The notes beneath the pieces were generated by a model. That model did not search any database and had not been told where the DNA came from. It worked only from the letters and a program-made list of their open reading frames with translations. Positions 2,871 to 52,194 of a DNA stretch of 64,000 bases are shown here, piece after piece. Source of the stretch: Azolla caroliniana (taxonomy: Eukaryota; Plantae; Polypodiophyta); contig JBHGNT010000001.1 in the NCBI GenBank assembly GCA_043228905.1, positions 868,001-932,000 of the forward strand. The letters are read 5' to 3'. Within the stretch, counting starts at the first letter, position 1. Every line of letters starts with the position of its first letter. Both the position numbers and the translations under genes were made by a program.

Positions 2871-2920
2871 GACTACATCTCTGACCTTATGGACTACATC
2901 TCTGACCTTATGGACTACAT
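2862..2920. repeat. 21-bp tandem repeat x~2.8 (GACCTTATGGACTACATCTCT)
   Basis: Copies start at 2862, 2883 and 2904. Confidence 0.95.
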
Positions 2921-24697: not shown

Positions 24698-27518
24698 ATG
24701 AGGATCCTAACGTGGAATGTGCAGGGCCTTGGTGGAGGCCGTCAACAACATGAGTGCAAAAGACTTCGGGAGGAGTTGAATCCCCTTAATATAGGGGGCA
24801 ACATTGACATATTGCTTTTGCAGGAACACCACCTCTCTCAAGAGAGAACTCAATGCCTAGTAAACCCCTTGTCGGGTGGATGGACCACATGGTGGTCGGC
24901 TACACAGGGTGACCTCCACCAAAGAGGACGGGTCTGCATCTCGATTAGCGATCAAGCCTGTTACGAAGTAACATCACATGGCATGCTAGTGGCGGGTAGA
25001 GCCTTATATGTGCTGATGAAGTGGAATCGCCTTCAGATTGGGGTGCTAAACATTTATGCCACTAACTCTTCCCCCAAGAGAGCAATCTTTTGGAGGATGT
25101 TAGCGACAACATTGCTTGATGCAGAGGCGTGGGTAATGGCCGGAGATTTCAACATGACTGAGCATCTGGGAGATAGGAAAGGGGGGACCCAAAGACCGCT
25201 TCATGGTGTGGAGTTGGACTCATGGGCTTTCCTAATTGGGAAAATTGGCGTGAAGGATACATGGGGCTCTTCCCTTAGGAGATGCTCGCATTCGCTACAC
25301 ATCTCTCGAGCTGTCGTGAATGCTTGGGGTGGTAGTCTTGCACGACTAGACCGCATATACATCAGCTCGTCCCTCGAAGAGCTGGGGGGCTCCTTCACTA
25401 TCTTGGCAAGTCTTACCTTCTCGGATCACCAGCCGATGAGACTAGACCTTAACCCACCCCGCGGAAGCAAGGGGAGTCTCATTGTGAAAATCCCCATAAA
25501 GATCATGAAGAGTGCAAAGGGGAAAGTAGGGTTGCAGAGCATATGGTGGGAGACCATTGTAAGTGGATCGGCCAGTGAGGATTTGCAGAAGAAACTGACC
25601 CTCTCCTCCATTTTACAACAGGAAACCAAGTTGGCCCTCCAGCAGGCTAGAGCCATTGAAACAAAATTACAGAAGTCCATTGCGGCTGCGCAATGATTGC
25701 TACAAGCAGACCCTAGCTGCAATTGGTCTAGAGCTAAGCTGGAGGAAGCAAAGTTGAAGCTACGGGAAAGGACGTTCGAGAAGAACCGCATGTTATTTCG
25801 AAGGGCCCCATCATGGTGGGCTAGAACAGATGGCAAGGTTAACCGTCATTTCTTTCACTCCATGGCACCCAAGGGTGGTGGTGGACATATACAGGGTTGT
25901 GCAGAGACCAGACGGCTCAATAACAGAGGACAAGGATGAGATTCTGCATAAGGCTACACAATACTATCGCGACCTGCTCACACCTATGCATATGCAGCAA
26001 AACACGGAGCTGGTTGAGAGAGTGATGGCTTGCATTCACCCCAAGGTCACCCATGAGATGGAAGTTGTGCTCGATAGCCCCATTTCTCGATTAGAACTCT
26101 CGGAGGCACTTAGGGATTTGCGGAGAGGAGCATGCCCCGGCCCTGATGGTCTCTCACGAGATTTTTTTGAGATTCATTGGGAAACTGTTATACCGTCAAT
26201 GGAAGCCGAGATTCCAGAGATTTGGTCCTCAAGAGCGATGCCAACTAGCCTGGTGGAGGGGATGATCTATCTCATCCCTAACGCGGCAGGGCAAAGCCTC
26301 GAGCTGCGCCAATGGCGTCCAATCATGATCCTTAACACGATATACAAGATACTCGCAAAAGTCCTAGCTAGGCGGATAACAAGCTTCCTACCGGACATCA
26401 TACATGAGAATCAAACAGGGTTTATCATGGGTAGGTGTATCTTTGATAATGTGCTGCTTCTCTGGGAAGTTATGGCATTGGTAGATCGCATCGCATCGAG
26501 CTCGGCTATTCTGATGTTAGACTTTGATTAGGCCTACGACAGGGTGTTATGGCCCTTTTTGGAAAGAGTGATGAGAGCTATGGGCCTTCCCCCGCAATGG
26601 AGGAATTGCACTTCTGCACTCTATTGGACTACTACTAGTAGCGTGTTGGTATCTGGTGCTAGGGGCCCCGCCTTCCAACTACATCGCTCAGTGAGGCAAG
26701 GTTGTCCCCTAGCCCCATATCTTTATCTATTTGTAACTGAGGCTTTCTCGGCCTACTTACAAGCACCAAGCAACGGACTGAGGGGATTGCCCTTACCCAA
26801 TGTGACTGAGGATCTTCTGTTATTTGAATATGTCGACGATACGGTCCTTTTCTTGCAGAGCGATGATGCAAATTTGCAGCGAGCTGAACATCTTGTTGAA
26901 GACTTTTGTCCGGCTGCTGGTGCCAAGATCAATTGGGATAAAACCCAAGGCCTCTGGTTCAGCGAACAAGAGATGCCAAGGTGGCATCCCCATGTTGATT
27001 TTGCATGGGTCCTTGATGGGACGAGATTCAAGTACCTCAGATTTACGATGGGGAGGGCAATCACCAAGGGAACACACTTATCCCATGTGCAAGCCAAACT
27101 AAGCAAGAAGTTGAACCAATGGAGCAGGTCTAAACTATCCTTCGCTGGTAGGGTTCTTATTGCGAACCAAGTGATGCTCGCCACCATGTGGCACTCAGTC
27201 TCGTGCTGGATTATGGACCCTTCACGCTTGCACGTGATTAAGGTTACCATCAGGGGTTTTATATGGTCAGGTAAGGACAACCCGATGGCTGCTGCTAGAG
27301 TATCATGGCATTGGTTAACTCAACAGCGGGCCAAAGGGGGGTTAGCCTCATAGACCCCTTAATGCAGAGGCGAGCATTGCTAGCCAAAATGGTGGTTCGT
27401 TGCCTCCTGCCAGGTAAGGGGTGTTGGAAGGTTCTACTTCGCAATAGGTTGCAGGCAGGGACTCAAGAGTATGGTAGGCCTTGGCCCAACTCCTTGAATT
27501 GGTGTTGCACGAGCGGAG
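24698..27518 (+). pseudogene. LINE ORF2 5' part (AP endonuclease + reverse transcriptase), with stops and frameshifts
   Basis: MRILTWNVQGL, LLQEHH, AGDFN, RLDRIY, SDHQP, PGPDG, WRPI, QTGF, LDFD*AYDRV, RQGCPLAP, YVDDT. Confidence 0.93.
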
Positions 27519-27950
27519 TGTTACCGATTAGGAACACGGTCTGCGGTCAGTCCTTCGACCTAGACCTCCAAGTGATTGTGAAACAACGAATGGTGGCGTA
27601 TGTGCATAATACGTAGGGGAATGTTCCCCGCAACCTAGCAGCATATAAGGGAGACGGCTTCAACCGACTCCTTATCAATGGTTACACGCTCACGTTCTTA
27701 CACTCTCAGGTATTCCAGACACACAATAGATTAGCCATAGCTATACATAGATTTTTAGAGAAGATAGAATTCTATTACGATACACTTCCAAAATTACACA
27801 CTACCTCTATTAGAGGTTTTCTGCCCTTTATATACGCAGGGTCTTTTTAGCCATTCACGCTTCCTGCGTGAACCGTTACATGCGTTATGATCTTATATTA
27901 TTTCTTATTCCTACGCTCTTGTCCGTCGGTTACTATTCCGGCGGACAACA
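27519..27950 (-). repeat. Element B 3' LTR (432 bp)
   Basis: Matches 49269-49709 apart from scattered substitutions and a 9-bp indel; TATATAAA on the minus strand. Confidence 0.95.
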
Positions 27951-28022
27951 CCTGGCATGCCTGTGGGACGTCGGACCCATCCCGTTAATCTAATTCCAAA
28001 ATGGCGCGGATGTTTGGCTCTG

Positions 28023-31000
28023 CTACGGTGTCGGCGTCCGGAGGCGACGTAGGGCCCGTAGGTGCATCGTGGTGTGGTTCCCCTGTTTGGTCGGGATGGG
28101 CGGTCCGGGTACGATGGGCTCTTCTTGAGCTAGTGGGTTGGGCTCAATCGTCGTCGTGCTTGCAGTCGATCGTGGCTCTGTATCAATCGTCACTTCCACC
28201 GTGGTGTCAGACATCGTTGTACGCTCCGGGGGGTAGGGTTGCGATTCCGTCTGGTCCGCAACGTTCTCCGTGTGGTCGGCCGATAGCGTGGGCTCCTGCG
28301 GATGGGGCTCCTCTTGGGCAGCGGTTTTGCTGTCTGGTACTGTGGGGAACTTCGCTCGTCGTTCCGCGCTGTTCACCGTCGTTGTAATTTCTGGTGATCT
28401 GGCTTGAGGTTCCTCTTCATCGACAGTGCCCGAAATTGGTGTCGCGATGGATTCCTCATTTGTTCACGTGTTGCCGGCTTGTGTGATTTGGTGAAATAGC
28501 TCCTCCTGGCTTTCACCAAAATCATCTAAGAGTTGCGCGAGTTCATCAGAATGTTGGTCAACTAGCGCACGATAGTCTTGCGCTAGGTCCTCGCGTACGG
28601 CCGCAATGCTGTCCTCATTTAGTTTATAGAAACCTCGGCTGTCTTTTCGCTGGTTCTCCCAGTCCGCACGATACGCGTGCAATTCCGCTACTTGGGCTGC
28701 CCACGCCATCCATCCTTTGTCTAGCGCTGTTTTTAATTGTAGTGTGAACCTCTCCCGATCTGTTTGTAGAAGGATACGCACGTTATCTGTGATGGCCTGG
28801 CAATGGTTGTGTGCGTCCTCCACCGACTTCTTGAGGTTTGCAATTTCTTCCTGACTAACTGCTGTTGCTTCTTTGTACGTGGTCTTCAGGCCCGCCCACA
28901 GCTGGGATTCCTTTGCATGGTGTTCCTCTAATTTCCCCATTTCATTGTTTAGGTGGATTTCGAGTTGATGCCTTCTTTCCTGTTCGACCACCAGTTGCTC
29001 GTCGAACCATACCTTCTTTTTCTCCAATAAGGTCCAGAGTCCCGCGATTGCCGCCTCCGATTTCTTCACTTCCTCCCGTAATTGGGCGTTTTCGTCTTTT
29101 GTCCGGATGTGCTGTGCTACCTCCGTATCGAGTTTCTCTTCAAGGGTTTTTACTGCCTTCCGACTATTAACCCGGATCTCCTTTTCCCTGTCTGAGGATT
29201 GGCGCAGTTCAACTCGAAGGCGGTCAACTTCTAATTCCACTAGTTGCATGGCCCTTTTCGCTTTTGAGCCTCAATTTCTTCCTTCAAAGCGTCGATGGTG
29301 TGGTTTGGTGGCGGAGTTGCTTGTTGCACCGTAGTCGCGTTAGTTTCCAACTCCACGATGCGTTCGTTGGCTTTTTGCAACTTGGTTTGGGTCATTTTCA
29401 CCTTCTTCCAGACATTCTTATTTATAATGGCCATCTCCTTGGTGCCCATGCTGACCTTTGCCAGTTCCCTATGGACTTCAACTAGGGCCGTGTTTAATGG
29501 GGGTAGCTCCATCCCCACTCGGCGTACACCGGCGTTCCTCTGTCTGCCGACCCTAGCTAGCCGGTCCTCATCGTCGCTCTCCGCCGTTTGTGTTAGGGCG
29601 CGCTCGATCATCTGGCGCTCCGCGTGCTCCTCGACCATTCGTTGTGAGGCCTTTATCTGTTGCGTTGCCAGGAATTCCATGAGCTCAAAGGAGGTTCCGA
29701 ATTGTAAGAGGGCGCTGAACTCATGGGTTGTGTCCAGGATATCTGGATATGCCAAAATCTCGCTTTCCGCCGTCAATCTGGCTTTCCCTCGTTGTGACTG
29801 GGTCGTAATGATCGGCCGTGGCTCCCGGATGATTTCGAAGGTGGTATTGGGCTCCGTAGTTGCGGACCCATCGCCTTCGGTCGTTGTCTCTGCCGTTGTG
29901 GGGACGTCTTTGACCAATCCCCGCCCATCTTTCCTGTCCAATCTCCGTCGTTTCGGTCTGCGGTTATCCTGCCGTGTTTCGGTGTCTGGCTGTGGGGCTG
30001 ATTCTGCGGAGCGTGCCGACTGTTCTTCCTGTGTTGTCCGTGTGTCTGGTTGGGCGGATTGGGGTTCCTCTTCCCACTCTGGGGCAACTAACTCTGATAT
30101 CCTGCGCTTCGCGGATCGGGGCGGAGGCGTGGGTCGGCTAGGTTGCGGTGCAGGTAGGCCTCAGGGTGGGAATAGCACCGTAAGGTACTGTTGTATGATC
30201 GGCATGAGCTTCTTGCCTTCCTGATACGCATGCAAGCCTTCCCTTAACGTCTGCCCTGTGATGACCCCCCAATCGACCGCACGCCCTTCAAAGGTATCAA
30301 TGATGATACCCGCCTTCTGCTTGGGCATCCCATATGCGTTGACGTGTACGCAGCCGACCTATAACAGGAACTTGGCAACTTCACGAAAGAAGGGATCCGG
30401 GATCTGCTTCGTTCTATAGGCCTTGGCGGAGGTGGAATATGGACCGAAATATCTCTGTAGCGCCTCTGCAGGAGAGATTTCGAAATGCCTTTCGCCTAGC
30501 GATGACAGGTCCAACTTTTTCCGGATGGAAGAGTTGGTGACCGTGTCGATGTTAAGCTTTCTAGCGATGTCCATGGCATCCGAGTGTCGAGGTGCCTCTG
30601 TGACCCGGTGTCGTGGAGAAACCCGTCCCTAGGCGGAATCTGAGTATAACGTGCGTAAACTGGCCCTTACACGTGCGCACAAGTTTTATTGTTTAGTACG
30701 TAGGTAGGTACAAGTCGCTTGAGGCGAAATCCTAGGTAGTACGCGTTCGGTAGGGAGGAAATCGAGGCGTATCCCTGTCCGAAAGGACAAGGAATTAACA
30801 TGATGTAACAAGTGGTAACGGCCTCCCTCCTTGGGTTATAAAAGACAAGGAGAAGTGAGGGGAAGGTATCGCGTCTTTTGGAGCAAGGAGGAAGGGCTGG
30901 CGGACCGGGACCGAGTTCTCACCTCCATCGTTCGACTTTCTCTGCAGGATTTCAGACTTTGTTGCCTCTGCTTCGTGGACAGCCTGTGTGCTTCCGGCAG

Positions 31001-31549: not shown

Positions 31550-31930
31550 TGAGCGCAACTATCCGTCCCCTATGCGCAACGCTCAGCCACAACTAAGCTT
31601 AGAATCAAACACAAAAAACAGGAATGAATGCACGACACAGTGAAGAGAAGAGTACACAGGATGTTTATGTGGAAAACCCAAACTAGGGAAAAAACCATCA
31701 CTATGTTACAGTGTACAACAGTAAAGCACCGAGGCAACAACCTCGAGCTTTCTATCTTCGCCACAGGCGGCGGTTACAACAGAGGCAACGACCTCTTCCT
31801 CTCTCTCTCTCTCACTCTGTACACAGTTACGCGCTCTGATCTCGCGCCAACAAGAATAACAACAACACTCTACATCACACACAATAAGTTTGCCCTAAGT
31901 CATATTTATACTAATATGACTTTTCGGCTA
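31550..31930 (+). mobile_element. Family-E LTR, 3'-truncated (left inversion breakpoint)
   Basis: Homologous to the 5' part of 51074-51678 up to GACTTTTCGGCTA; left flank TTTAG. Confidence 0.85.
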
Positions 31931-33225
31931 CGGGCTACGCGCCGGGAAGAGGAAGCGCGGCTTCCCGGAGGGCATGCAAGGCCAAGCGGACCCAGAGGGC
32001 GCAAGTCGAGGCGAAGCGGTAACGAGAGCCTCGAGGGACACCGACACAGAGGTCGGGATGGCAGTACGCTCTACCGCGAGAGAGCACGGCGAACAAGGGG
32101 AAAGCGAAAAGCGCGTGATGGGGTCATTGAAGGACTGAAGCACGAGCACGCACTCGGAGGAGAGCATCGACATACGGGGAAAGCCTACGGAAGGCAAGCG
32201 CGGAGCGGAGAAAGTCGGCACGTCGAGGTGCGTGGCACGCAAAGGGCGAAATCCGGCAGTGACCGGGAGTGCATCCGGAGGATATACGGGGCGGACAAAG
32301 GAAGAGCAACCGGGTCGGCGACGACGTTTGGGAAGACCGAATAGGGAGGAAAGCACGGGCATCGGATACGGCGGGTCGGATGTAGTCAGTGGTTCAAGGA
32401 CCCACGGTGCACGTGGCAGATCGGGTGGAGGCAACGACTCGGCGAACATCGTCGAGTGTGGCGGATCGGATGGCGCCGACGGTTCGAGACCATTCGGCGA
32501 GGATTGTGGACTGGAAGGCGGCGGTGGTTCGTGTGGACGGGGTGGTCTTGCTCGAACTGGAAGACAAAACGGGGCGGGCCCACAAGGATGCTAAGGACTC
32601 GGCCGGTCGTCGTGGCCGAAAATATCGTGTTCTCTCCCCTATGTTTTGGCACATACCGGTGGATGTGCGGTTTGGTGGGGGCGGATGTCGTGAAGATTTT
32701 CGTCCATAGGCGGAAACCGGGGTGGAAGGGGCAAGTCGGTGGTGTGCAACATGTGCACATGTATACTAGGATATGGTGTATAGAAAGAGAGGGGGAAATT
32801 TTGTCCCACATTGTAAGGTCCCTCCCTCCTTGGGCTATAAAAGGAAGGGAGGGGTCACTTATGAGGGGGTTGCCTATTTTGAGGGAGAGAGGCATACCAC
32901 TTAGGTCGAGGATTTCCTATTTGGTTTTAGGGTTTCGGTTAGGGTTTTCTTCTTGGGTTTTCCTTTAGGGTTTTCATATAGTCGTTTGGTGCAGCCATGG
33001 CGGCCACCATTGTAAAGCGTTTATGTTTTCTTAATAGAACTTCTTGTTGAGTATCTTGACTCCATCTTCTTCATCTTCTTCTATCATAATGTTATATTCG
33101 TTCTCTTCTCCTCTTGAGCTATGAGCTAACCTTCCATTCGTTGTCTTAACCTTTCTCCTCTTCTCCCTAGTCCAAGACCCCCGTGGTCCCGCCCCTTCCA
33201 CACGCACGCGCGTAACAACGCGACA

Positions 33226-33568
33226 ACGGCTCCACCAGCTACTCGAACTCGGCGAAAAACGCGTACACAACATGGCTGTGTTGGAGCAGGAAGAACGACG
33301 ACGTAAAGAGTTTGTGGATCGACATCGGAACGCATGGGAAAAGGATTTTGCCGTCGGTCGAGCGGTGCTAGTTTTCGAAACTCGCATGGGGCATATGCCA
33401 GGGAAGTTACGATTCTGCTGGACAGGCCCGTACTGGATAATTGGAGCGGAACAAGGCACGTTCCAACTAGGTATTTTGGCTGGGGAAGTCTTACGACAAA
33501 AGGTGAATGGGTTTCGCCTTAAACCTTACCTGGGCCCTATGCCACCGAACCCATTCACCGCCGGATAG
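33226..33568 (+). pseudogene. Element B integrase C-terminus, now inverted
   Basis: RLHQLLELGEKR...GKLRFCWTGPY..VNGFRLKPY continues the minus-strand integrase that stops at 36336 (..SEEVR); the two parts are joined by TSD ACGG. Confidence 0.88.
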
Positions 33569-33725
33569 GACAAAGCCGGAGAACCCGCGGCGTAAGGGGA
33601 CGGCCCCACTTGTATCATAATGTAAAAATAGGTTGTATGTAACCGTTACGAAGAAAAGAAGAAGAAGAGGAAGAAGAAGAAGAAGAAAGAGAAAATAGCG
33701 ACACTATTAAAGAAAAAGGACTAAA

Positions 33726-34461
33726 TGTTGGGAGATAGGTCCCTCCGGATGGGAAGGGAGAAGAACAGTGCTGATGAGCAAACTCGGCCGAGGCCGAAAC
33801 TGGATGAGGAGTACCCGGTTTCGAAGAGCCGGATGGTGCAGACCCGGTGAGAATCGGATGAGGAGTACCCGGCTTCGGAGAGCCGGATGGTGTAGACCTG
33901 GTGAGAACCGGATGAGGAGTACCCGGCTACGGAGAGCCGGATGGTGAAGACCCGGTGAGAACAGGATGAGGAGTACCCAGCTACAGAGAGCCGGATGGTG
34001 CAGACCCGGTGAGGAGTGCTCACCGGATGAAGAGACATATTCGTAAATATGTTTCTGATAGTCCATCGAGACTATATTTGTAAATAGCCGGAAAAGTCAT
34101 ATTACTATAAATATGACTTAGGGCAAACTTTTAGTTGTTGTTGTCATTTTCTGTTTTGCACGAGATCAGTGTGCGTAACTGTACAGAGAGAGAGAGAGAG
34201 AGAGAAAGAGGTCGTTGCCTTTGTTGTAACCGCCGCATGTGGCGAAGATTTGTGAGCACGAGGTCGGTGCCTCAGTGAACTCACTGTTGTATATTCCTAC
34301 ATAGTGACAGCGTGGTTTTTCCCCTAGCTTGGGGTTTTCCACGTAAACCTCCTGTGTATCTTCCTCTTCTTCTTCCCGTGTTTTATTTCCCGTTTTTTGT
34401 GTATCATTCTAATCTCGGTTGTGGCCGAGCGTTGTGCATAAGGAGCGTTGAGTTCCCGTCA
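33726..34461 (-). mobile_element. Family-E LTR, chimeric (right inversion breakpoint), with 54-bp tandem repeat x~4.5
   Basis: Reads TGACGGGA..TCCCAACA on the minus strand. Its flanks CTAAA and CCTTC do not match each other, but CTAAA is the reverse complement of TTTAG at 31545-31549. Confidence 0.88.
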
Positions 34462-34519
34462 CCTTCGGTCCTCTTGTATATGCCCGTTCCGGGCCTCGCA
34501 TCCTCATCTTCGCACGTGT

Positions 34520-35758
34520 TCACTCCGGGCCACGCCTCCTAATGGCCACCGCCGTAGTCAACGGTCTCGGTGTCGAGAGGTCTTGCCTCCGTCCGCTATG
34601 ACCTTGTTCATCGTCGTTTCGATCGTCCGCTTTGCCGCCGCCACCTTCCGTCTCTCTGGTCTCACGTGGGCTCTCGGGGCCGACCGCCGAAGTCTCTAGA
34701 ATAGGTGTGGGAAAAGTCTCGGTACCGTTACTCGCCGATGCCATGTTCGTAGCCACCTTCGTTCGAACGCCGTGGTCCGTGGCTATCTCGTCTCCAATCG
34801 CGGAAGCCTCGATTACGCCTGCCGCCTCCTCTTCCTCGATCTCCTTGCCGTCGTCTTGGTTGCCCACCTTGCCGCCGCCACCGTCCGTCACTCTAGGTCT
34901 CACACCGGCTCTCGGGCCGGATGCCAGAGTCTCTAGGACCGGTGGGTGTAAGCTCGCGGCACCGCCGCTTGTCCGCTCCTCACTCAATGTTTCGGGCCGC
35001 CATGTCCCGAATCCGTAGTTACCGGCGTCCATGGTCGTCCCTTCACCGCAAGGCAAGAGGGTCGCTTCCTCCGCACCCTCTCCTATGTCGCTGTCGTACG
35101 CTCTCCCGGCCTCCGTATAGGCCCCATCTTCTACGTCTAGGGAGGCTTCTTCCTCCGCATCCTCCGATCGCCTCCAGCCCGTCTCCATAACAAGCCCTTC
35201 TTCGGCTCCGATTTTCACCTTCACAAGCTCGCATGCCTCCCGTATTAGCACCTCTAGGTCGAGCTCCTCCGAACCGTTTTGCGTTGAGCTCTCTTCCGGC
35301 GGTAGTGCGTACTCACTCACCGCTCTCTCTTCTCCGCCGCTCGCGGGCCGTGTTGTGGCCGACCGCCTCGCATCATGTTGCCGGCACACCCACCGATCGA
35401 ACTCATGTCGACCTCTTCCTTCCGGTTCCGTGTACCCGTACGCCTCCAATAGGGCTCCCTTAAAGGACACCCACGACTTATGAGCTTCTCGTAGCTCCTT
35501 GACCTCCTTGTGCACCGATACGGCCGCCACTCGAGGAAAATACTCTAGCCACATCGCCTCATCTACGCCCCCTTTCGCCATCTCGGCATCGTACGCTTCC
35601 AAGAACCTCGGGACATCGTCCCCGTTGAATCGGCCGACTCGATCAACCACCCTCTCGATGGCTTGTTGAGCCGCATCTCGCCTCGCCTTTTTCCGTCGCG
35701 CATCCATCAGGATCTTTGCCATCATCTCCTCGAAGTCGAAGTCTTCTTCAATCTCCAT
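34520..35758 (-). CDS. Element D Gag-like ORF (412 aa) with acidic low-complexity tail
   Basis: VGRFNGDDVPRFLEAYDAEM..SWVSFKGALLEAY aligns by eye with C gag IGMFDGTNISKYVNIYYDEM..DWNAFKEALVSEY. Confidence 0.75.
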   Translation of the reverse strand: MEIEEDFDFEEMMAKILMDARRKKARRDAAQQAIERVVDRVGRFNGDDVPRFLEAYDAEMAKGGVDEAMWLEYFPRVAAVSVHKEVKELREAHKSWVSFKGALLEAYGYTEPEGRGRHEFDRWVCRQHDARRSATTRPASGGEERAVSEYALPPEESSTQNGSEELDLEVLIREACELVKVKIGAEEGLVMETGWRRSEDAEEEASLDVEDGAYTEAGRAYDSDIGEGAEEATLLPCGEGTTMDAGNYGFGTWRPETLSEERTSGGAASLHPPVLETLASGPRAGVRPRVTDGGGGKVGNQDDGKEIEEEEAAGVIEASAIGDEIATDHGVRTKVATNMASASNGTETFPTPILETSAVGPESPRETRETEGGGGKADDRNDDEQGHSGRRQDLSTPRPLTTAVAIRRRGPE

Positions 35759-36335
35759 GCTCCCTTGCCGCCCTTCACGTCGGGTTCACCAAAGATGTCG
35801 CGTTGTTACGCGCATGCATGTGGAAGGGGCGGGACCACGGGGGTCTTGGACTAGGGAGAAGAGGAGAAAGGTTAAGACAACGAATGGAAGGTTAGCTCAT
35901 AGCTCAAGAGGAGAAGAGAACGAATATGACATTATGATAGAAGAAGATGAAGAAGATGGAGTCAAGATACTCAACAAGAAGTTCTATTAAGAAAACATAA
36001 ACGCTTTACAATGGTGGCCGCCATGGCCGCAACAAACGACTATATGAAAACCCTAAAGGAAAACCCAAGAAGAAAACCCTAACCGAAACCCTAAAACCAA
36101 ATAGGAAATCCTCGACCTAAGTGGTATGCCTCTCTCCCTCAAAATAGGCAACCCCCTCATAAGTGACCCCTCCCTTCCTTTTATAGCCCAAGGAGGGAGG
36201 GATCTTACAATGTGGGACAAAATTTCCCCCTCTCTTTCTATACACCATATCCTAGTATACATGTGCACATGTTGCACACCACCGACTTGCCCCTTCCACC
36301 CCGGTTTCCGCCTATGGACGAAAATCTTCACGATA

Positions 36336-38181: not shown

Positions 38182-39283
38182 TGTCGTGAAGTACGAAAGC
38201 TTCACATTAAAAGTCTACAATAAGATAAATACGTAACTAAAATAACATTTGATAATGTTTTATATAATATTAACAACACATATGATAATATTATATATAT
38301 GTAAAAAAAAATATATATATATATATAGATAAATATATTATATTACACGAACAAGAGAGGACTTGAACCAATAACCCCACCCTATGACTCTCAAACCTTA
38401 CCATTTACTCTATACTAGTAATATACATAAAATAAAGCATACTTTATATATACTTTATATTACATAAAGGATTTGCTTCATGATATAAAAATAAAGTTGT
38501 ATGTTGTATTCAATAGCATTTTGAGACTCGAACCCACAACCTCATACACCAAAGTTGACACACCTACCATTAGGATAGGCCCTTTCTCTTTAAGATTATG
38601 TTTTCATGTTTATTCTTATTGCATATATTGTTTCATACATAAAAGCTCAAATGAGCGAGATGTTTATCATGCATCACATGTAATGCATGAACGCCAAATG
38701 GCGATCATGCATCACATGCATTTCATGCACTACATGCATGATTTGTACCCTCCAATGCATCATATGCATGGGGGCACCTATTTAAATGGTGAAAGAGAAG
38801 ATCAAAGGGGAGATATGTATGAGATATCAATCAAATTATGTACTTCATAAGAGATACCATAAAAATAGAGAAAGAAGGGAAGAAGTTTAACATAAACGTG
38901 GAGCTCTAGCTTGGCGGTCGTGGTGGTCAACTCTCAACAAGAGGGAGGCGGTTCGAGCCTTATCTTCATCAAAATATTGAAGTGAAGATTGTAGTGGTCT
39001 ACGATCAAGAAAGAGAAGAGCGATTACCTTGCATCACAAAGTTCGGAGGTTCAACGACGTGCACAATCATTTTGTAACTCTTTCATCAAATAATTATAAA
39101 TCTCTTTTATTGCTTCAAATATCATTCTATATCCTATCTTGTCATATCTTGTTGATCACTATTTATCTATCTCTACTCTTTCGTCTCTTCCGTCCATAAT
39201 CCCAGTGATTCCTTCCTCACTTTCACGATATCTTTTGTCTACGCAACGCTACGCTTCTAGGCGAGCCACGCCACGACACAATT

Positions 39284-39301
39284 TGGTGAACCCGACGTGA
39301 A
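39284..39301 (+). other. Element C primer-binding site, tRNA-Trp (TGGTGAACCCGACGTGAA)
   Basis: Complement of the plant tRNA-Trp 3' end TTCACGTCGGGTTCACCA; the identical PBS occurs in D. Confidence 0.88.
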
Positions 39302-39345
39302 ACGGGGAAGTAGAAGAGACATCTAAAGTAAAGATCAACATCAAC

Positions 39346-41520
39346 ATGGCAAGTATGAGTACAATGGATCCGGTAATGTTGTTTATTGAAAAGTTGAATC
39401 AAGATCGATTATTTCATGCCTTACGAGAAGTCCGAGAGAAGATTGGTATGTTTGATGGCACAAATATTTCGAAGTATGTGAATATATATTATGATGAAAT
39501 GGAAATGTTTGGTATAAATGATGTCAATATGATAGCAAACTTTTATAAATTAGTGGACATGGAATTAAGAGATAGAATTCATGAAATACAAGCATTGCAT
39601 AGTTTGGATTGGAATGCATTCAAAGAAGCACTTGTGTCTGAATATGCTCGTGAGGATTTCTCTCGAGTTACTATGCGTTCATTTCATGAATGGATCTTAA
39701 AAGAAGATAAAGGGTTATCTGTGGCTGACACAAAAAAAGAGTTTGATAGGATGTATGGACACTTAAAGCCAGAAGAAAGAAATTCTTTGTCTTGGCAAAA
39801 GGTTGCTTTATTTTTGCAGGCAGTTGACAAGAGATATAGAAAAGAATTGGAATTTATGCTTGAAGTGCCAAATACCGAGGATGGTATAACGACAGATTGG
39901 AATGAGGTAACAAATGCTTGTAATAAATTTATGAAAAGAATGCAAAGGAATGGTGTAATGCTACAAATACCACATGTGGGAAACACAAATCGGCTTGAGC
40001 AAAACATTGAAGTTCAAAGACTTGGTCGAGAACCATCACACGAAATGGTCCATCAACCACGAGAAATGACGGGAACTAAGAGTGAGTTTTTGCTTGATGA
40101 TTTAGTTCAAAGTATGAAAGATCTAACAATTAAAGTGGCAAAGCTTGAGAATGGTCAGACTTCGAGGTCAAGGGAACCATTTCGACCTCGATGCATGTGG
40201 TGTGATAGTCTCGAACATCGTCTACGTGATTGTGAAGAATATAAAGACATGGAGAATCGGGACTTGGTCTATTGGAAAAATGGTAACATTTACTTAACTG
40301 AAACTAGATCTCCGCTTACAAAGAACTTTGGTGATGGTGGTGTTAAGGTTAAATTTGAAGAAGCTGAAGCAAAGAAGGCTTCCGCAATGTATTACTCGGC
40401 AACGGCAGGAATGCGCCTCGATGACATGCCATCCCGATCATCATTCTGGGAGAAGGTTGTAAGTACCGCACAAAAGCAAAAGATGAAGATGGAAGACCTT
40501 CGTGTTGCCGGAGATTCTGTAAGGAAAAACACTGGATGGGATGTTCCAGTAGATGCTATGACGGTCTATGCTCAGATGGCAGAACACCAAGAGCATGAGG
40601 TGATAGTGGAAGAAAAAAGGAAAAGATCGGATGATGAGATTGGCTCAACCAAAAAGCATGAAACAAGAGAAAGCAAAAGAAAAGAGATGGACGCAAAAGT
40701 TGAAAAAGGTAAATCTGGTCCTTCATTCAAATTAATGTCTGATATTGAAAAGGATACAGATTTAAAGAAAGTTTTAGAAACAAGAATACTAGACAGCCGA
40801 GTAGAATTTACACTAAGAGAAGTATTAGGTATTGCAAAAAAGGAATTTCATGATGAAATAATTGATATTGTGCGAAGAAAGAAGCAAGTAAATGAGCAGG
40901 TTAAAGAGACAAATCCGAAGGTGGCATATGAAGTGGTGAGCAACGAGTCAAACAATATTGTTGTTGACTCTCAACATGCATCAACCTCAATGATAAATTC
41001 AACAGATGTAAGAAGCCATTACTCTCTCAAATGTTGGGCAAGAGCCACTACTGAGCATCATGTGAAGATTGGAAATGTTCCAGACCCCGTGATGGCACTT
41101 ATTGATCATGGTTCTGAAATAAATATAATGAGTGCTGATTTTTACAGGAAAGGTAGATGGCCAATTGATACTCAACATGGTTGGCGAGTAAAAGCTGCCA
41201 CATCAGTCACGGAAGATTTATTTGGTGCATGCCCAAATGTAAAGGTTACTATTGGTGATATAGAGGTAGATCAACATTTCTTTGTGCAGGAAGGATCTAC
41301 CTATCCAATAATCCTAGGGCAACCATACATTACAGCGGTATGAATGGAGACCAAAGTCCTCGACAATGGTTCTGCCTATGCGAAAATCCGTAGCCAAGAT
41401 GGACGACGAACTGTACAATTTATGACAGTTCGCCCAAATCATGAGAGGAACAAGCAAGAGCTTCGTGATCATTTAATACCAAAAGACTGTGATGATTTTG
41501 ATAATCAGGTTTTTGACTAG
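39346..41520 (+). CDS. Element C Gag-protease; in-frame TGA at 41341-41343, natural stop likely TAG 41518-41520
   Basis: CMWCDSLEHRLRDC knuckle; LIDHGSEIN protease motif; IILGQPY. The frame stays open for 58 codons after the TGA (METKVLDNGS..). Confidence 0.88.
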
Positions 41521-44500
41521 GACTGTTGCGAGTGAGGGTTGCAATAGTCCCATTATTAAAAGACCCTCATATAGGGCATTACAACATATGAATAAGTCAT
41601 TTCATGTTTCTGAAAGTGGTGCTATATGTGTGACTAGGATGTATGAATGCAAGAGGAACTTGAAAAAGAATGCTAATCTGTTTCAGCAGGCATTGAAGGA
41701 TAATGGAGTACTTGAAATGGAAGAGCAGATTGAAAGCGTTATGGAAGAAATTTCTTTTGCAAATACTTTAGAAGAGTTAGAAATGTATTTGAAAGAAGAT
41801 GATGAGAATGTTAGAAAGATACATGTAAACTCAATTGATATGTATTATGAGATTGATAGGTATAATTGTAAATATGAAGAAGTAGAAAGTTTATGTAATA
41901 CAAAATACAAAACAATAGATAAAAAGGTCAAACCTGCTGCAGTACCATTACCTATTGGTAGTGAAGAGAAGATGGAGGCAGCAGCAACTGAGCCTATGCT
42001 TCGACCAATAGAGAAGATTGGACATCACTTCACTTCGGAGACAATAAATAACTTGAGAATCGGAAGGGGTGAATTTCTTCTGCAATCAGAGATCGCGACT
42101 TTCAAAGAAATGATCTTTAGGCATGGGAAAGCGTTCGCATTCAAAGCTGAGGAGATTGGTTGTGTAAATCCAAAGGTGGTGACGCCAATGGTAATATTTA
42201 CTATCCCTCATATTCCTTGGAATTTTAAACCTATTGCAGTACCGAGAGCTCGATTACCTCAACTGTTGGAGCTGCTGAAGGATAAAGTCAAGATGAAGAT
42301 TTTAGAGCCTTCAAATGCACCATACTCCAATAGATGGTTCACAGTTCCAAAGAAAGATGGTTCTCTAAGATTCATCCAAGATCTACAACCAGTCAACAAG
42401 GTCACAATCCGAAATGCGGGAATCGGACCGATCGTTGATGAATTTGCGGAAGCGTTTGCTGGAAGAGCGATTTACTCTATGGGAGACCTATATTCAGGAT
42501 ACGACCAATTTCAACTAGCAATTGATAGTCGCAATATCACAACAATGAAAACACCAATTGGGTTGGTTCAAATGTGCACTCTACCTCAAGGTGCGACAAA
42601 TTCAGTTGCTCATATGATGAATGCAATGAACAAGGTTCTACATGAGTACATCCCAAAGGTAACTATGCCATTTTTAGATGATATTCCTATTAAGGGATGC
42701 TTAGAAAGAGAGAAAGATGAGACTATGGTTGGAAATGGTTGCAGAAAGTTTGTGATGGATCACATTAATGACTGTGAAAGTATTTTAAATAAGCTTGAGC
42801 AGGTACATTTGACACTATCAGGAACAAAGTCTTGCTTTGGGCAAAACGAAGTTCTAATAGTTGGTCATATGTGTGGGTGGTATGGGAGGAAGCCTTCACC
42901 GATCAAAATTAATGCAATACAAAATATGAAGGAAGTTTGCGACTCGGTAACAGAGGTGAGAAGATTTTTGGGTGCATGTGTGTTTTATCATATTTGGTTA
43001 CCACACTTTGCACATGTCTCAGATCCTCTCTACCAACTTTTAAGAAAAGGAAAGAAGTTTATTTGGACTGATGAACATACACAAGTTGTTCAACAGCTGA
43101 AAGAAGCATTACTGAAAGCACCAGTTCTTCGCCAACCAGACTACAAAGGTGAAAGACCAATTATAGTAACAGTTGATACTAGCCCAATCGGGATCGGTTG
43201 GGTTATCAACCAAGAAGATGAAGACCAACATCGATATGCTATTAGATTTGGAGCAAAGATATTAAATGAAAGACAAAGAAACTATGCACAAGTTAAACGA
43301 GAATTGTGGGGTTTGCTTACTGCATTAAAAACAGATAGAGATTACTTGATCGGAGCAGATGTAGTGGTTGAAACAGATTGTTTGCCACTCATTGGAATGA
43401 TAGCAAGTTGCACGACACCAGATATTGCAATGCTTCGGTGGATTGCATACATCAGAACCATGAACCCAGAATTGCGGCATATAAAGGGAAAAGACAACCC
43501 AGTTGCAGATATGCTGTCAAGGGCAAGGTTCATAAATGAAAAGGTGATGCAAACTGAATATAAGAACTGGGCAACTACAAGCCATCAATTTGCTCATCAA
43601 GAATCTATTACGCCTCATGATGAGTTTAATGTAAGTATAATGTTCAAAGACACAGAGTATGAAGGTCAATGGTTCGAAATAGGAAATTTTCTAAAGACTC
43701 AAGAAGCCAACCCATCATGGTCGAAGAAACAATTAAATGAATTTCGAAGACGAGCATTCAAGTTTTTTTTACATGAAGGGCATTTATGGAGGCGTCCAAA
43801 AAGGCCAACCGAAAATCCTCTTCGAGTCATTTGTAAGGATGACATTAAGAGAAAATTAATTAATGAATTCCATGATAGTTTGTGGGCAGGACATAGAGGC
43901 ATATGGGCGACATTTATGAAGTTGAAAGAAAAGTATTGGTGGCCACATATGTATAAAGATGTAACGAAATTTGTGGAAACCTGTGAGGTTTGCCAGAGGT
44001 ATTCAACTATCCGGTATCGAGATGAGCTAAAACCAACATATTCATCATCAATGCATTATAAATGGATGGTCGATCTAGTGACAATGCCACTTGGGGAAGG
44101 TCAAATGCGATATTTAGTACTAGCAAGAGAAGACCTTACAAACCAAGTAGAAGGAAGACCACTACGACAAAAAACAACTAGAGCTGTATGTAAATTTTTG
44201 TTAGAAGATGTAATATGTCGTTATGGGTGTGTTGGTAAAATAATTGCAGATAGAGGAGAACTCGACTCTGATGAAGCTAGAGAATTCTTCAGCCGAATAG
44301 GGGTCAAATTATCACTTACAACTGCATATAATCCAGAAGCCAATGGAAAGATTGAAAGAGGACATAGCCCAATAGTTAAGGCGATCGTGAAAAGCTGTAA
44401 AGGTAAAATAAGAGATTGGCCACGCATGCTACCTTATGCACTATGGGCGGATCGAACAACTCATAGTTCAGTAACAGGGTACATGCCAGCTGAATTGATA

Positions 44501-44971
44501 CTTGGCCAAAAGCCCATCATGCCGATAGAAGAATCAATTATGTCATGGATATCTATTCCATGGAGAGAAGAGGTGAGCAGAGAAGAATTGCTTGCTTTAC
44601 GAATTCAACAATTAGAGCGTCGACCTGAAGATATAGAAATAGCAGCCCAACGATTGAAGGAGGCTCGACTAAAGAATAAAATCCGTTTTGATAAAAGTCA
44701 TAGAATTCGACCTAAGAAAATAGAAGAAGGAGATTGGGTGCTCGTGTATGATAGCAGTTTAGATAATCAACATAGCACCGTCCGCAAGTTCGCTGAAAGA
44801 TGGTTTGGGCCTTATATAGTAAGAAAAGTATATGATAACTTTACTTATAAGCTTAGTGAATTGGATGGGACACTAATCCTAAACGTGGTAGCTGGAAAGA
44901 GGATAAAAGTATTTAAGAAAAGGTTTGAGCTTGAACCTCCTCCAATAGATCAACATGAAGATGAAAGATAG
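41489..44971 (+). CDS. Element C Pol (RT-RNase H-integrase), open for 1160 codons; presumably reached by frameshift
   Basis: DLYSGYDQ, LPQGATNS, FLDDI, VDTSP, NPVADMLSR, HHCC (H..GH..C..C), IIADRGE, PEANGKIER, WFGPY. Confidence 0.96.
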   Translation: MMILIIRFLTRTVASEGCNSPIIKRPSYRALQHMNKSFHVSESGAICVTRMYECKRNLKKNANLFQQALKDNGVLEMEEQIESVMEEISFANTLEELEMYLKEDDENVRKIHVNSIDMYYEIDRYNCKYEEVESLCNTKYKTIDKKVKPAAVPLPIGSEEKMEAAATEPMLRPIEKIGHHFTSETINNLRIGRGEFLLQSEIATFKEMIFRHGKAFAFKAEEIGCVNPKVVTPMVIFTIPHIPWNFKPIAVPRARLPQLLELLKDKVKMKILEPSNAPYSNRWFTVPKKDGSLRFIQDLQPVNKVTIRNAGIGPIVDEFAEAFAGRAIYSMGDLYSGYDQFQLAIDSRNITTMKTPIGLVQMCTLPQGATNSVAHMMNAMNKVLHEYIPKVTMPFLDDIPIKGCLEREKDETMVGNGCRKFVMDHINDCESILNKLEQVHLTLSGTKSCFGQNEVLIVGHMCGWYGRKPSPIKINAIQNMKEVCDSVTEVRRFLGACVFYHIWLPHFAHVSDPLYQLLRKGKKFIWTDEHTQVVQQLKEALLKAPVLRQPDYKGERPIIVTVDTSPIGIGWVINQEDEDQHRYAIRFGAKILNERQRNYAQVKRELWGLLTALKTDRDYLIGADVVVETDCLPLIGMIASCTTPDIAMLRWIAYIRTMNPELRHIKGKDNPVADMLSRARFINEKVMQTEYKNWATTSHQFAHQESITPHDEFNVSIMFKDTEYEGQWFEIGNFLKTQEANPSWSKKQLNEFRRRAFKFFLHEGHLWRRPKRPTENPLRVICKDDIKRKLINEFHDSLWAGHRGIWATFMKLKEKYWWPHMYKDVTKFVETCEVCQRYSTIRYRDELKPTYSSSMHYKWMVDLVTMPLGEGQMRYLVLAREDLTNQVEGRPLRQKTTRAVCKFLLEDVICRYGCVGKIIADRGELDSDEAREFFSRIGVKLSLTTAYNPEANGKIERGHSPIVKAIVKSCKGKIRDWPRMLPYALWADRTTHSSVTGYMPAELILGQKPIMPIEESIMSWISIPWREEVSREELLALRIQQLERRPEDIEIAAQRLKEARLKNKIRFDKSHRIRPKKIEEGDWVLVYDSSLDNQHSTVRKFAERWFGPYIVRKVYDNFTYKLSELDGTLILNVVAGKRIKVFKKRFELEPPPIDQHEDER

Positions 44972-44999
44972 TGGCACATGCCGGAGGATGTGCAGGTCT

Positions 45000-45011
45000 A
45001 GAGGGGGTGGA
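45000..45011 (+). other. Element C polypurine tract AGAGGGGGTGGA
   Basis: Lies immediately 5' of the 3' LTR. Confidence 0.85.
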
Positions 45012-46113
45012 TGTCGTGAAGTACGAAAGCTTCACATTAAAAGTCTACAATAAGATAAATACGTAACTAAAATAACATTTGATAATGTTTTATATAATAT
45101 TAACAACACATATGATAATATTATATATATGTAAAAAAAAAATATATATATATATATAGATAAATATATTATATTACACGAACAAGAGAGGACTTGAACC
45201 AATAACCCCACCCTATGACTCTCAAACCTTACCATTTACTCTATACTAGTAATATACATAAAATAAAGCATACTTTATATATACTTTATATTACATAAAG
45301 GATTTGCTTCATGATATAAAAATAAAGTTGTATGTTGTATTCAATAGCATTTTGAGACTCGAACCCACAACCTCATACACCAAAGTTGACACACCTACCA
45401 TTAGGATAGGCCCTTTCTCTTTAAGATTATGTTTTCATGTTTATTCTTATTGCATATATTGTTTCATACATAAAAGCTCAAATGAGCGAGATGTTTATCA
45501 TGCATCACATGTAATGCATGAACGCCAAATGGCGATCATGCATCACATGCATTTCATGCACTACATGCATGATTTGTACCCTCCAATGCATCATATGCAT
45601 GGGGGCACCTATTTAAATGGTGAAAGAGAAGATCAAAGGGGAGATATGTATGAGATATCAATCAAATTATGTACTTCATAAGAGATACCATAAAAATAGA
45701 GAAAGAAGGGAAGAAGTTTAACATAAACGTGGAGCTCTAGCTTGGCGGTCGTGGTGGTCAACTCTCAACAAGAGGGAGGCGGTTCGAGCCTTATCTTCAT
45801 CAAAATATTGAAGTGAAGATTGTAGTGGTCTACGATCAAGAAAGAGAAGAGCGATTACCTTGCATCACAAAGTTCGGAGGTTCAACGACGTGCACAATCA
45901 TTTTGTAACTCTTTCATCAAATAATTATAAATCTCTTTTATTGCTTCAAATATCATTCTATATCCTATCTTGTCATATCTTGTTGATCACTATTTATCTA
46001 TCTCTACTCTTTCGTCTCTTCCGTCCATAATCCCAGTGATTCCTTCCTCACTTTCACGATATCTTTTGTCTACGCAACGCTACGCTTCTAGGCGAGCCAC
46101 GCCACGACACCGG

Positions 46114-49014: not shown

Positions 49015-49250
49015 GCTAGGGGCTACGGCGGGTCGGGAAAGACCACAATGTTTTTGTGGTGAGCGTGCTCCCCGCGTATCGTCGAGGTATTTGGAGAGCG
49101 AAGAATCACCTTTGTAAGCTTTTGTCGTGCGTGTTCCTTTGCCTGGCGTGTCACGGACCTTGTGATTGGCCGGTCTTGTCGTGTTGGTTCTCTAGGGCGT
49201 CTGCGGCTAAACATCCATTCGCCGTTGTTCGTCTGTGAGAAGACACACAT

Positions 49251-49264
49251 CACCGGGCGTGCCA
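49251..49264 (-). other. Element B primer-binding site TGGCACGCCCGGTG (tRNA-Arg-like)
   Basis: Lies 4 nt inside the 5' LTR. It is complementary to the plant tRNA-Arg(UCU) 3' end as recalled (..CACCGGGCGTGCCA). Confidence 0.75.
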
Positions 49265-49268
49265 AAAG

Positions 49269-49709
49269 TGTTACCAATTAGGAACACGGTCTGCGGCCAG
49301 TCCTTCGACCTAGACCTCCAAGTGATTGTGAAACAACGAATGGTGGCGTCTGTGCATAATACGTAGGGGAATGTTCCCCGTAACCTAGCAACATATAAGG
49401 GAGACGGCTACAACCGACTCCTTATCAGTGGTTACACGCTCACGTTCTTACACTCTCAGGTATTCCAGACACACAATAGATTAGTCGTCGCTATACACAG
49501 ATTTTTAGAGAAGATAGAATTCTATTACGATACGCTTCTTTACATTCCAAAATTACACGCTACCTCTATCAGAGGTTTTCTGCCCTTTATATACGCAGGG
49601 TCTTTTTAGTCGTGCACGCTTCCTGCGTGACCTGTTACATGCATTATGATCTTATATTATTTCTTATTCCTACGCTCTTGTCCGTCGGTTACTATTCCGG
49701 CGGACAACA
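49269..49709 (-). repeat. Element B 5' LTR (441 bp)
   Basis: Direct repeat of 27519-27950; followed on the minus strand by the PBS and gag. Confidence 0.95.
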
Positions 49710-49714
49710 CGGAG

Positions 49715-51790: not shown

Positions 51791-52194
51791 AGCCATCACT
51801 GAAGGGCGCCTTTTTAGTTGTAGGTACTTACATTAAGTAGTCAGTCCGAAAGGCGATGTAACTAGTCTCATTTTCTTGAACTTGATTGGAGGGAGATTCC
51901 CCGATCTATGTTTAAGCCTCCTTGTACAGTCTCTTTGTAATAATCCTTCCTAGCTAATGGGAAAGTAGCTTCATTTTGGGGGAAAAAAAAATCAATACCT
52001 TTACTAATTGATTTATGTTATGCCAAACCTTGATTCATAGATCATACACTTGGTCCGGTTTCGGTTTGGTTTGGTTTTAACAATTTGAAACCACAGTCTA
52101 AATGGTTTAATGTTTTTTTAATATTTTTTTTAACAACCTTTTCATTTTTTATAAAAACTCCTTCATTAGTTATAAAATTTTATAAATGAGACTA

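What the first reader, a model, noticed from the sequence alone, without database searches (positions are those of the whole stretch)
27951..27980. Element B has a tRNA-Arg-like 3' end in place of a polypurine tract: inverted PBSs at both internal ends
Seen: on B's sense (minus) strand the 3' LTR is preceded by ATGGGTCCGACGTCCCACAGGCATGCCA-GG, not by a purine run. On the plus strand this reads TGGCATGCCTGTGGGACGTCGGACCCA, 2 nt from the LTR. It is an inverted counterpart of the true PBS TGGCACGCCCGGTG (49251-49264). It matches the recalled tRNA-Arg(UCU) 3' end (GTGGGTTCGAGTCCCACCGGGCGTGCCA) through the T-arm and ends in CCA. Inference: (a) a second tRNA anneals to minus-strand cDNA and primes plus-strand synthesis; (b) the element's own tRNA mimic pairs with its PBS for self-priming or RNA circularisation; or (c) the element replicates from either strand. 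I know of no canonical plant LTR element organised this way.
Basis: partly seen in the sequence, partly recalled or inferred. Interest (0 to 1): 0.85.

Follow-up and report, generated by a model that had tools for sequence, protein, structure and literature searches.

The report
tRNA-binding site replaces polypurine tract
A group of plant jumping genes lacks the purine-rich patch that normally starts their second DNA strand and carries there a conserved two-part mirror image of a tRNA end, so a second host tRNA likely starts that strand, which would be a new way to copy such elements.

Summary
Element B is a Ty3/gypsy LTR retrotransposon (LTRs 27519-27950 and 49269-49709, target duplication CGGAG). 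It has no polypurine tract; 2 nt from the 3' LTR lies an inverted site complementary to the 3' 28 nt of tRNA-Arg(UCU). It is not a one-off. In metagenome contigs, 118 of 123 pattern matches are the same cassette (41 flank clusters); 108 of 118 sit 2 nt from an AACA end; 46 of 46 with element genes on the inner side are inverted. The intact cassette has two tRNA-complementary blocks split by a covarying hairpin at tRNA position 59; the window copy lost 13 nt of it. A retro-copied full tRNA-Arg-CCA (L004, L015) supplied the tRNA sequence. Two elements (L027, L064) have a different 5' primer site but the same cassette, which argues against pairing with the element's own PBS. Best reading (0.6, inferred): a second tRNA anneals to minus-strand DNA and primes the plus strand. 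Main rival (0.25): the element's own RNA copy of the cassette is the primer. No priming was measured; ten literature searches found no precedent. The scan reported this three times before on other pieces of this genome.

The parts
27514..27518 (.). left target-site duplication CGGAG
   Evidence: same 5 letters at 49710-49714
27519..27950 (-). 3' LTR of element B, 432 bp, TG...CA
   Evidence: 412 matches, 20 mismatches to the 5' LTR
27951..27952 (+). 2-nt spacer between the LTR end and the inverted site
   Evidence: 108 of 118 related cassettes have AACA plus 2 nt
27953..27968 (+). block 1 of the inverted site (read on the minus-strand DNA): complementary to tRNA-Arg(UCU) nt 76-60 with one tRNA base at the acceptor/T-stem junction skipped; two C-to-T changes in this copy still allow G.T pairs
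27969..27970 (+). remnant of the hairpin spacer; 13 nt are missing behind 27969 in this copy
   Evidence: loose ends in runs X1, X3, X4, X13; loci L068, L087, L123
27971..27980 (+). block 2 of the inverted site: complementary to tRNA nt 58-49 (T-loop and 5' side of the T-stem)
28023..30640 (-). broken extra ORF on the sense strand 3' of pol; one 1194-aa frame in relative L061; no Pfam family
33225..33568 (+). integrase C-terminal part, flipped with a block of nested DNA
   Evidence: collinear with the integrase core in L008 and L061
36516..37799 (-). RNase H and integrase (zinc finger, core), with stops
   Evidence: Pfam PF17917, PF17921, PF00665
46054..46998 (-). reverse transcriptase, N-terminal part, cut by nested element A
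   Evidence: Pfam PF00078; 64% identical to L061
48463..49191 (-). gag
   Evidence: Pfam PF03732
49251..49264 (-). true primer-binding site, 14 nt complementary to tRNA-Arg(UCU), 4 nt from the LTR
49269..49709 (-). 5' LTR of element B, 441 bp
49710..49714 (.). right target-site duplication CGGAG
38182..46110 (+). nested element A (not part of the finding; control): 4-bp TSD CCGG, other PBS, ordinary G-rich purine tract before its 3' LTR

Best explanation
This clade of Ty3/gypsy elements has no polypurine tract and carries in its place a two-part site complementary to tRNA-Arg(UCU), and a second host tRNA likely anneals there to the new minus-strand DNA and primes the plus strand. Steps: (1) tRNA primes the minus strand at the ordinary PBS (standard; supported by full tRNA-CCA copies at the PBS position in L015). 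(2) After the first strand transfer RNase H clears the RNA (established for LTR elements). (3) Inferred: the freed DNA folds a 5-bp hairpin and binds tRNA nt 76-60 and 58-49 on either side of it, leaving position 59 and the adjacent A58 (methylated in tRNAs, recalled) at the junction. (4) Inferred: RT extends the tRNA's CCA, copying 2 nt and then U3, which fixes the LTR's left edge exactly as a polypurine primer would. (5) Inferred: RNase H removes this tRNA, and integrase trims the 2 nt. The cassette is inherited through the RNA, not recopied from tRNA, which would explain why the skipped base and the hairpin persist.
For: Position: CCA ends 2 nt from the LTR in the window (TSD-defined) and AACA plus 2 nt precedes 108 of 118 cassettes; the end of the plus-strand primer is what sets this boundary. 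No purine run longer than 3 in the last 25 nt in 41 of 41 flank clusters (partly forced, since the search pattern covers most of those 25 nt), while nested element A has a run of 8 there. Orientation: 46 of 46 cassettes with element genes on the inner side are antisense to them; 72 of 118 had no such hit. Features the pattern left free are conserved: spacer 14 or 15 nt in 118 of 118 (1-16 allowed), the fifth letter A in 41 of 41, the tenth only C or T, flanks only 0.39 alike on average. The hairpin covaries (94% of 155 cells paired, 30 double changes, 0 of 500 shuffles reach it) while the tRNA-facing letters that could vary change only in wobble-compatible ways at three positions. Predicted tRNA binding is stronger at the inverted site (-22.5 to -25.5 kcal/mol net) than at the true PBS (-15.7, -20.1), RNA parameters as proxy. 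The cassette stays Arg(UCU)-type when the PBS differs (L027, L064). The true PBS of B and of the L008 family is also followed by a hairpin and CGAAC at offset 32-33, against 31 in the cassette. Coverage of block 1 equals that of the inner region in runs X1 and X3.
Against: No priming product was observed; no RNA run holds the stretch. The two blocks were fixed by my search pattern, so their invariance among the 118 hits is circular, and relatives with an ordinary tract could not be retrieved. All 118 hits come from one series of assemblies, perhaps one host. The same letters fold in the sense RNA into a T-arm-like hairpin of -12 to -17 kcal/mol with a free CCA tail, which fits the rival equally. 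One-sided changes in the hairpin do not tell DNA from RNA strand (T-G 3, C-A 3, A-C 4). The last two letters of block 2 are poorly kept (31 and 26 of 41). A tRNA on DNA is an RNase H substrate and might be cut before it primes (inference). No full tRNA copy was seen at the U3 side, but the search could not have found one. The window organism's own tRNA genes were not seen.
Confidence: 0.6

Rival explanations
1. The element's own RNA copy of the cassette is the plus-strand primer: it folds into a T-arm-like hairpin that escapes RNase H, stays paired by its last 10 nt, is cut after CCA (reusing the enzyme's habit of cutting at tRNA ends) and is extended. A tRNA mimic in cis does the job of a polypurine tract.
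For: Same position argument. Sense RNA folds into a hairpin with a free GGGCGUGCCA tail in three of four examples. It keeps the usual logic of a leftover RNA primer, and purine purity is not absolute in known tracts (PMC3185511, passages).
Against: An RNA primer pairs with its own DNA copy whatever its sequence, so a 26-nt match to one host tRNA needs an extra reason. The T-stem-like outer helix shows no double change in 31 rows, while the inner hairpin shows 30 (the outer helix was partly fixed by the pattern). The hairpin interrupts the T-loop, and 12 of 41 clusters change the loop base that is invariant in tRNA, which spoils a structural mimic but suits a U.G pair with tRNA.
Confidence: 0.25
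2. The cassette pairs with the element's own PBS to circularise the RNA, aid the first strand transfer or self-prime; the plus strand starts by some other route.
For: In Arg(UCU)-PBS elements the first 10 nt are complementary, predicted -18 to -26 kcal/mol. 5'-3' bridging through tRNA is known in Ty3 and Drosophila gypsy (PMC1635307, passages).
Against: L027 and L064 have another PBS and pair weakly (-9.4, -11.4) yet keep the cassette; block 2 has no partner in the PBS; it leaves the missing tract and the exact 2-nt spacing unexplained.
Confidence: 0.07
3. The element is two-way: an antisense transcript uses the inverted site as its PBS, so either strand can be the genome.
For: The priming signals are symmetric, and both LTR ends read TG(T)...ACA.
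Against: All long coding frames lie on one strand; a TATA-like box is seen by eye only on the sense strand of the LTR; no antisense RNA data.
Confidence: 0.04
4. A neutral relic or assembly artefact: an inverted PBS or retro-copied tRNA end fixed by accident.
For: tRNA retro-copies do occur in this clade (L004, L015), and B is a decayed, nested copy.
Against: 41 diverged flank clusters keep it at fixed spacing with compensatory changes; RT only 64% identical between B and L061; non-coding derivatives (L064; also L021 and L038, in which the protein search found no element gene) keep it; TSD and host LINE frame confirm one insertion.
Confidence: 0.04

Closest known systems
Canonical LTR retroelement priming (tRNA at PBS, RNase H-resistant polypurine tract; HIV-1, Ty1, Ty3)
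   Same: tRNA-primed minus strand at a PBS next to the 5' LTR; a signal 2 nt from the 3' LTR that sets the U3 edge; RT-RNase H-integrase. Mechanism as described in PMC10886601 (first of six parts read) and PMC3185511 (passages).
   Different: No purine tract; its place is held by an inverted, two-block tRNA-complementary site with a hairpin.
5'-3' bipartite primer sites of yeast Ty3 and Drosophila gypsy
   Same: A second tRNA-binding site near the 3' end of the element (PMC1635307, passages).
   Different: There the second site is on the RNA, binds the anticodon/T stems and not the CCA end, and was dispensable for cDNA synthesis in gypsy; here it is on the opposite strand, binds the CCA end and abuts the LTR.
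Plant non-chromovirus Ty3/gypsy, OTA superclade (Athila, Tat, Ogre, Retand) and Phygy, Selgy (Neumann et al. 2019, PMC6317226; passages and supplementary table 5 read)
   Same: gag-RT-RH-INT order, no chromodomain, 5-bp TSD, extra ORF 3' of pol, tRNA-Arg PBS (common in TatIII, Ogre, Retand).
   Different: No archaeal-type RNase H, so not Tat; PBS not Asp/Asn/Ala as is dominant in Athila; no inverted site appears in the passages I saw.
Helenus and Cassandra TRIMs (PMC10886601)
   Same: Small-RNA-derived sequence conserved in an LTR element.
   Different: There the tRNA or 5S piece lies inside the LTR as a Pol III promoter and a normal PBS and polypurine tract are present.
Self-priming Tf1/sushi and Tcn1 elements (PMC6317226, passages)
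   Same: A departure from the standard primer.
   Different: They replace the minus-strand tRNA; here the minus-strand tRNA is kept and the plus-strand primer is replaced.

Membership tests
Ty3/gypsy LTR retrotransposon | direct LTRs TG...CA with target-site duplication | tested here: met
Ty3/gypsy LTR retrotransposon | domain order gag, RT, RNase H, integrase | tested here: met
   Pfam on B and on intact-frame relative L061; protease not hit by Pfam
Ty3/gypsy LTR retrotransposon | tRNA primer-binding site after the 5' LTR | tested here: met
   14-nt match to tRNA-Arg(TCT) of L004
canonical PPT-primed LTR element | polypurine tract before the 3' LTR (usual, not universal, per PMC6317226) | tested here: not met
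Tat clade (TatI-III, Ogre, Retand) | extra archaeal-type RNase H domain | tested here: not met
   no such Pfam hit in the 1410-aa pol of L061 at E 0.05 or in B's pieces
Athila | no extra RNase H, 5-bp TSD | tested here: met
Athila | dominant PBS tRNA-Asp, Asn or Ala | tested here: not met
   PBS is Arg(UCU); table
Athila | clusters with Athila in RT-RH-INT trees | not testable with these tools
   labelled reference proteins (supplementary fasta of PMC6317226) could not be read
Phygy / Selgy | 4-bp TSD; PBS Trp (Phygy) or Ala (Selgy); no extra ORF | tested here: not met
   5-bp TSD, Arg PBS, extra ORF
chromovirus (incl. Tcn1) | chromodomain after integrase | tested here: not met
   none in L061 pol
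Helenus-type TRIM | tRNA-derived promoter inside the LTR; PPT present | tested here: not met
   cassette lies outside the LTR; no tRNA hit in 27400-28600
Ty3/gypsy-type 5'-3' bipartite PBS | second site on the genomic RNA, complementary to a tRNA part other than the 3' end | tested here: not met
   opposite strand, 3'-end match
dual-tRNA priming (proposed) | plus-strand DNA starts on a host tRNA | not testable with these tools
   needs cDNA-end mapping or in vitro RT

The most novel reading that the evidence does not exclude
A whole clade of Ty3/gypsy elements in seed-free plants primes both DNA strands with host tRNA: the polypurine tract, thought near-universal in LTR retroelements, has been replaced by a structured DNA docking site that binds tRNA-Arg(UCU) around a hairpin placed at the modified A58 corner, and some families use two different tRNAs for the two strands.
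Probability: 0.6. Interest if true: 0.9.

Novelty: new variant of a known kind. Interest (0 to 1): 0.78.

Why it matters
Plus-strand priming from an RNase H-resistant purine tract is a textbook step shared by retroviruses and LTR retrotransposons. An abundant natural clade that dropped it shows the step can be rebuilt, and gives a short, defined substrate to ask how RT picks a plus-strand primer and how a tRNA on DNA escapes RNase H long enough to be extended. Either surviving mechanism (host tRNA in trans or tRNA mimic in cis) would be new as far as my searches go. In practice, LTR annotation tools that require a polypurine tract or orient elements by the best PBS match would miss these elements or turn them round, because the inverted site matches tRNA better than the real PBS does.

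Tried and rejected
No whole genome is held for this window, so no genome-wide copy count or host tRNA set. ARAGORN finds no tRNA in the window; Rfam finds nothing meaningful in 27400-28600. Viral contigs: 3 matches to a 17-letter pattern, not examined further and taken as chance; no relative of the integrase. No RNA holder listed. Run X12 (organism C) gave no laid contig (no proof of absence). The variant table listed one row and missed differences that one search showed, so I drew nothing from it. Five of 123 pattern matches (L046, L052, L065, L075, L088) were dropped before all counts: short spacer, no LTR-like end. My first idea that the window's C-to-T changes prove tRNA:DNA pairing was dropped: most relatives have C there, and the changes sit at CpG. 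The idea that one tRNA is recycled from the minus-strand 5' end to prime the plus strand was set aside, because L015 shows the tRNA still attached and copied at the U5 side. The conserved part of the extra ORF has 82 relatives, none with an informative name. A recollection that Drosophila micropia has a second tRNA site was not confirmed. Literature searches without a precedent: (listings only, except the papers named as read); the library lacks most subscription papers.

Full report
Observation. Two direct repeats, 27519-27950 and 49269-49709, align at 93.5% with a 9-nt gap (412 matches, 20 mismatches), begin TG and end CA, and are flanked by CGGAG on both sides. They interrupt a LINE whose frame has no stop across the empty site. 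So B is one insertion. Its gag, RT, RNase H and integrase core lie on the minus strand, which makes 27519-27950 the 3' LTR. The only purine run of 8 or more in the 200 nt upstream of it starts 176 nt away. Nested element A has a run of 8 purines just before its 3' LTR, and C a G-rich stretch with a run of 5. The true PBS is 4 nt from its LTR, not 2.

The tRNA. No genome is held and the window has no tRNA gene. A pattern scan of metagenome contigs brought two loci with a complete tRNA-Arg(TCT) ending in CCA (L004, L015; ARAGORN, Rfam). In L015 it stands at the PBS position, followed by the spacer and LTR start seen in L008, which is direct evidence that this tRNA is the minus-strand primer of the clade. 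B's PBS matches its last 14 nt. Among 2023 TGG-starting sites in the window, 27953 is the best match to its complement (score 15, next 11). The host of these loci is probably another species: its LTR regions are 68-82% like B's.

Other copies in the same and nearby organisms. Contigs of four runs from four studies cover the stretch 27800-28250 deeply (469 to 2418 pieces each). Depth over the inner half of block 1 is close to depth further inside the element (51,000 against 46,000-58,000 in X1; 9,000-10,000 against 6,000-8,500 in X3); these sums are rough and are no copy number. Loose ends behind 27968-27969 show the same 13 extra letters in runs X1, X3, X4 and X13, labelled as three organisms. 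None of the 22 pieces shown, of 877, bridges the window's shorter junction with 31 letters on each side. The window copy is thus a deletion variant, and its nearly continuous T-arm match is secondary.

The cassette across families. Five lack an LTR-like end and have short spacers; they were dropped. The other 118 all come from one series of assemblies. The pattern fixed the two blocks, so their invariance proves nothing. What it left free is informative: the spacer could be 1-16 nt and is 14 (106) or 15 (12); AACA plus 2 nt precedes 108 of 118; 96 with full flanks fall into 41 clusters whose flanks score 0.39 on average. Where element genes lie on the inner side, they are on the opposite strand in 46 of 46 cases; L008 and L061 show the full order cassette, extra ORF, integrase, RNase H. 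B and L061 share 64% of RT residues. The spacer is a hairpin: on the 32 cluster representatives of length 38 (31 distinct; 9 of 41 left out for length), 94.2% of 155 cells pair, 4 of 5 pairs show double changes, no shuffle of 500 reaches this and slid partners pair at 21-47%; on all 41, 181 of 205 cells pair against 146 +/- 4 in shuffles. Kinship among families inflates such counts. A looser search in the same loci found two further, decayed cassettes at LTR ends and nothing of another design.

How it fits the tRNA. By the Rfam alignment, block 1 is complementary to tRNA nt 76-60 with one base at the acceptor/T-stem junction skipped, and block 2 to nt 58-49; the hairpin sits at 59. That A58 is methylated and blocks pairing and copying is recalled, not tested. 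Cofolding, with RNA parameters as a stand-in for an RNA:DNA hybrid, gives a three-way junction and net binding of -22.5 to -25.5 kcal/mol for three cassettes, against -15.7 and -20.1 for two true PBSs. Changes at the three half-free block positions are C to T (10 and 9 of 41) and A to G (12 of 41), all compatible with wobble pairs to the tRNA; the first two are at CpG and may be decay, and the third was limited to A or G by the pattern. The last two letters of block 2 vary more.

Uncoupling from the PBS. In L027 gag follows a PBS that begins TGGCGACCAC, and L064 is a complete non-coding element (overlapping LTR ends) with that PBS; both keep the Arg(UCU) cassette. Predicted pairing of the cassette RNA with its own PBS drops to -9.4 and -11.4 kcal/mol from -18.1 to -25.8. 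This is two loci, L027 has low coverage and may be chimeric, and L064's orientation is by analogy; still it argues against pairing with the own PBS as the general function.

Mechanism. The left edge of an LTR is set by the 3' end of the plus-strand primer (established; the usual 2-nt offset is recalled). A CCA ending 2 nt before TG, with no purine tract, says the primer ends at this CCA. It is either a host tRNA bound to the minus-strand DNA (0.6) or the element's own RNA (0.25). I favour the first because an own-RNA primer needs no match to a host tRNA, because the hairpin breaks the T-loop a mimic would keep, and because the real PBS in B and in the L008 family shows a similar block-hairpin-CGAAC layout (3 of 6 PBS regions at offset 32-33, one at 15, two none). 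Against it, the sense RNA does fold into a T-arm-like hairpin with a free tail, the strand on which the hairpin forms is undecided, and RNase H could cut a tRNA on DNA; the RNase H acidic residues of L061 look intact by eye. All steps after minus-strand priming are inferred.

Classification and host. Domain order makes it Ty3/gypsy. L061's pol has no chromodomain and no second RNase H, so it is neither chromovirus nor Tat; TSD, PBS and extra ORF exclude Phygy and Selgy, and the PBS is atypical for Athila (PMC6317226, passages and supplementary table 5). I leave it as an unplaced non-chromovirus. Supplementary files 1 and 3 of that paper could not be read and may hold related elements.

Novelty. 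Ten searches gave no description of a tRNA-primed plus strand or an inverted PBS in place of the tract; I saw listings only, plus passages of PMC6317226, PMC11963269, PMC3185511, PMC1635307 and PMC2797524 and the first sixth of PMC10886601. The nearest cases differ: the 3' sites of Ty3 and gypsy are on the RNA and bind other tRNA parts; Helenus keeps its tract. The scan's own notes report the same feature three times on other pieces of this genome and a possible case in a fungus; I first saw one after forming my reading and do not count them as support. Verdict: real, clade-wide in the data seen, a new variant of a known kind with a probably new priming step; interest 0.78.

Noticed in passing
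L004:1190-1265 (+); L015:2079-2154 and 2800-2872 (-): Full-length tRNA-Arg(TCT) with CCA written into DNA; in L015 it stands in place of the PBS, followed by the family's 5-nt spacer and the LTR. Looks like read-through copying of the whole primer tRNA. Both copies are preceded by TGTTA, which is also how the LTR begins.
   Followed up: partly
L027 (PBS near 2251-2270), L064 (PBS near 3060-3082): A second PBS type, TGGCGACCAC, in elements that keep the Arg(UCU) cassette; recalled as fitting another tRNA-Arg isoacceptor, not tested. These families would use two different tRNAs.
   Followed up: partly
window 49227-49264 (-); L008, L028, L032, L076: The true PBS is followed by a small hairpin and CGAAC (complementary to the tRNA T-loop) at nearly the same offset as in the inverted cassette; the two ends may be old copies of one module. 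Absent in L021 and L027; folding pairs this box with tRNA only for the window copy.
   Followed up: partly
window 31565-36333: An inversion between two opposite copies of a third LTR (31565-31930 and 33726-34461) flipped the integrase tail of B and the 3' half of nested element C, so C's LTRs now face each other (538 nt, 99%).
   Followed up: partly
window 38182-46110 and 32686-36335: Nested elements A and C share a PBS type, have 4-bp NCGN target duplications (CCGG, ACGG) and G-rich tracts: features listed for Phygy. A's LTRs are 99.9% identical over 1099 nt, so it is very young.
   Followed up: partly
window 26532-27353 and 49715-51153: B sits inside a LINE; the frame runs without a stop across the empty site.
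   Followed up: yes
L061:139-3723 (-); window 28023-30640: The extra 1194-aa ORF has a conserved N-terminal domain of about 150 aa and a coiled-coil-like part, with no Pfam family and 82 unnamed relatives.
   Followed up: partly
L012, L020, L021, L025, L038, L044; L060: Short derivatives, some in tandem, keep both the cassette and (in the first group) a PBS of only 10 matching nt.
   Followed up: no
window 19010-19414, 33798-34013, 51543-51659: Tandem repeats of 135 nt (3 copies) and 54 nt (inside the third LTR family).
   Followed up: no
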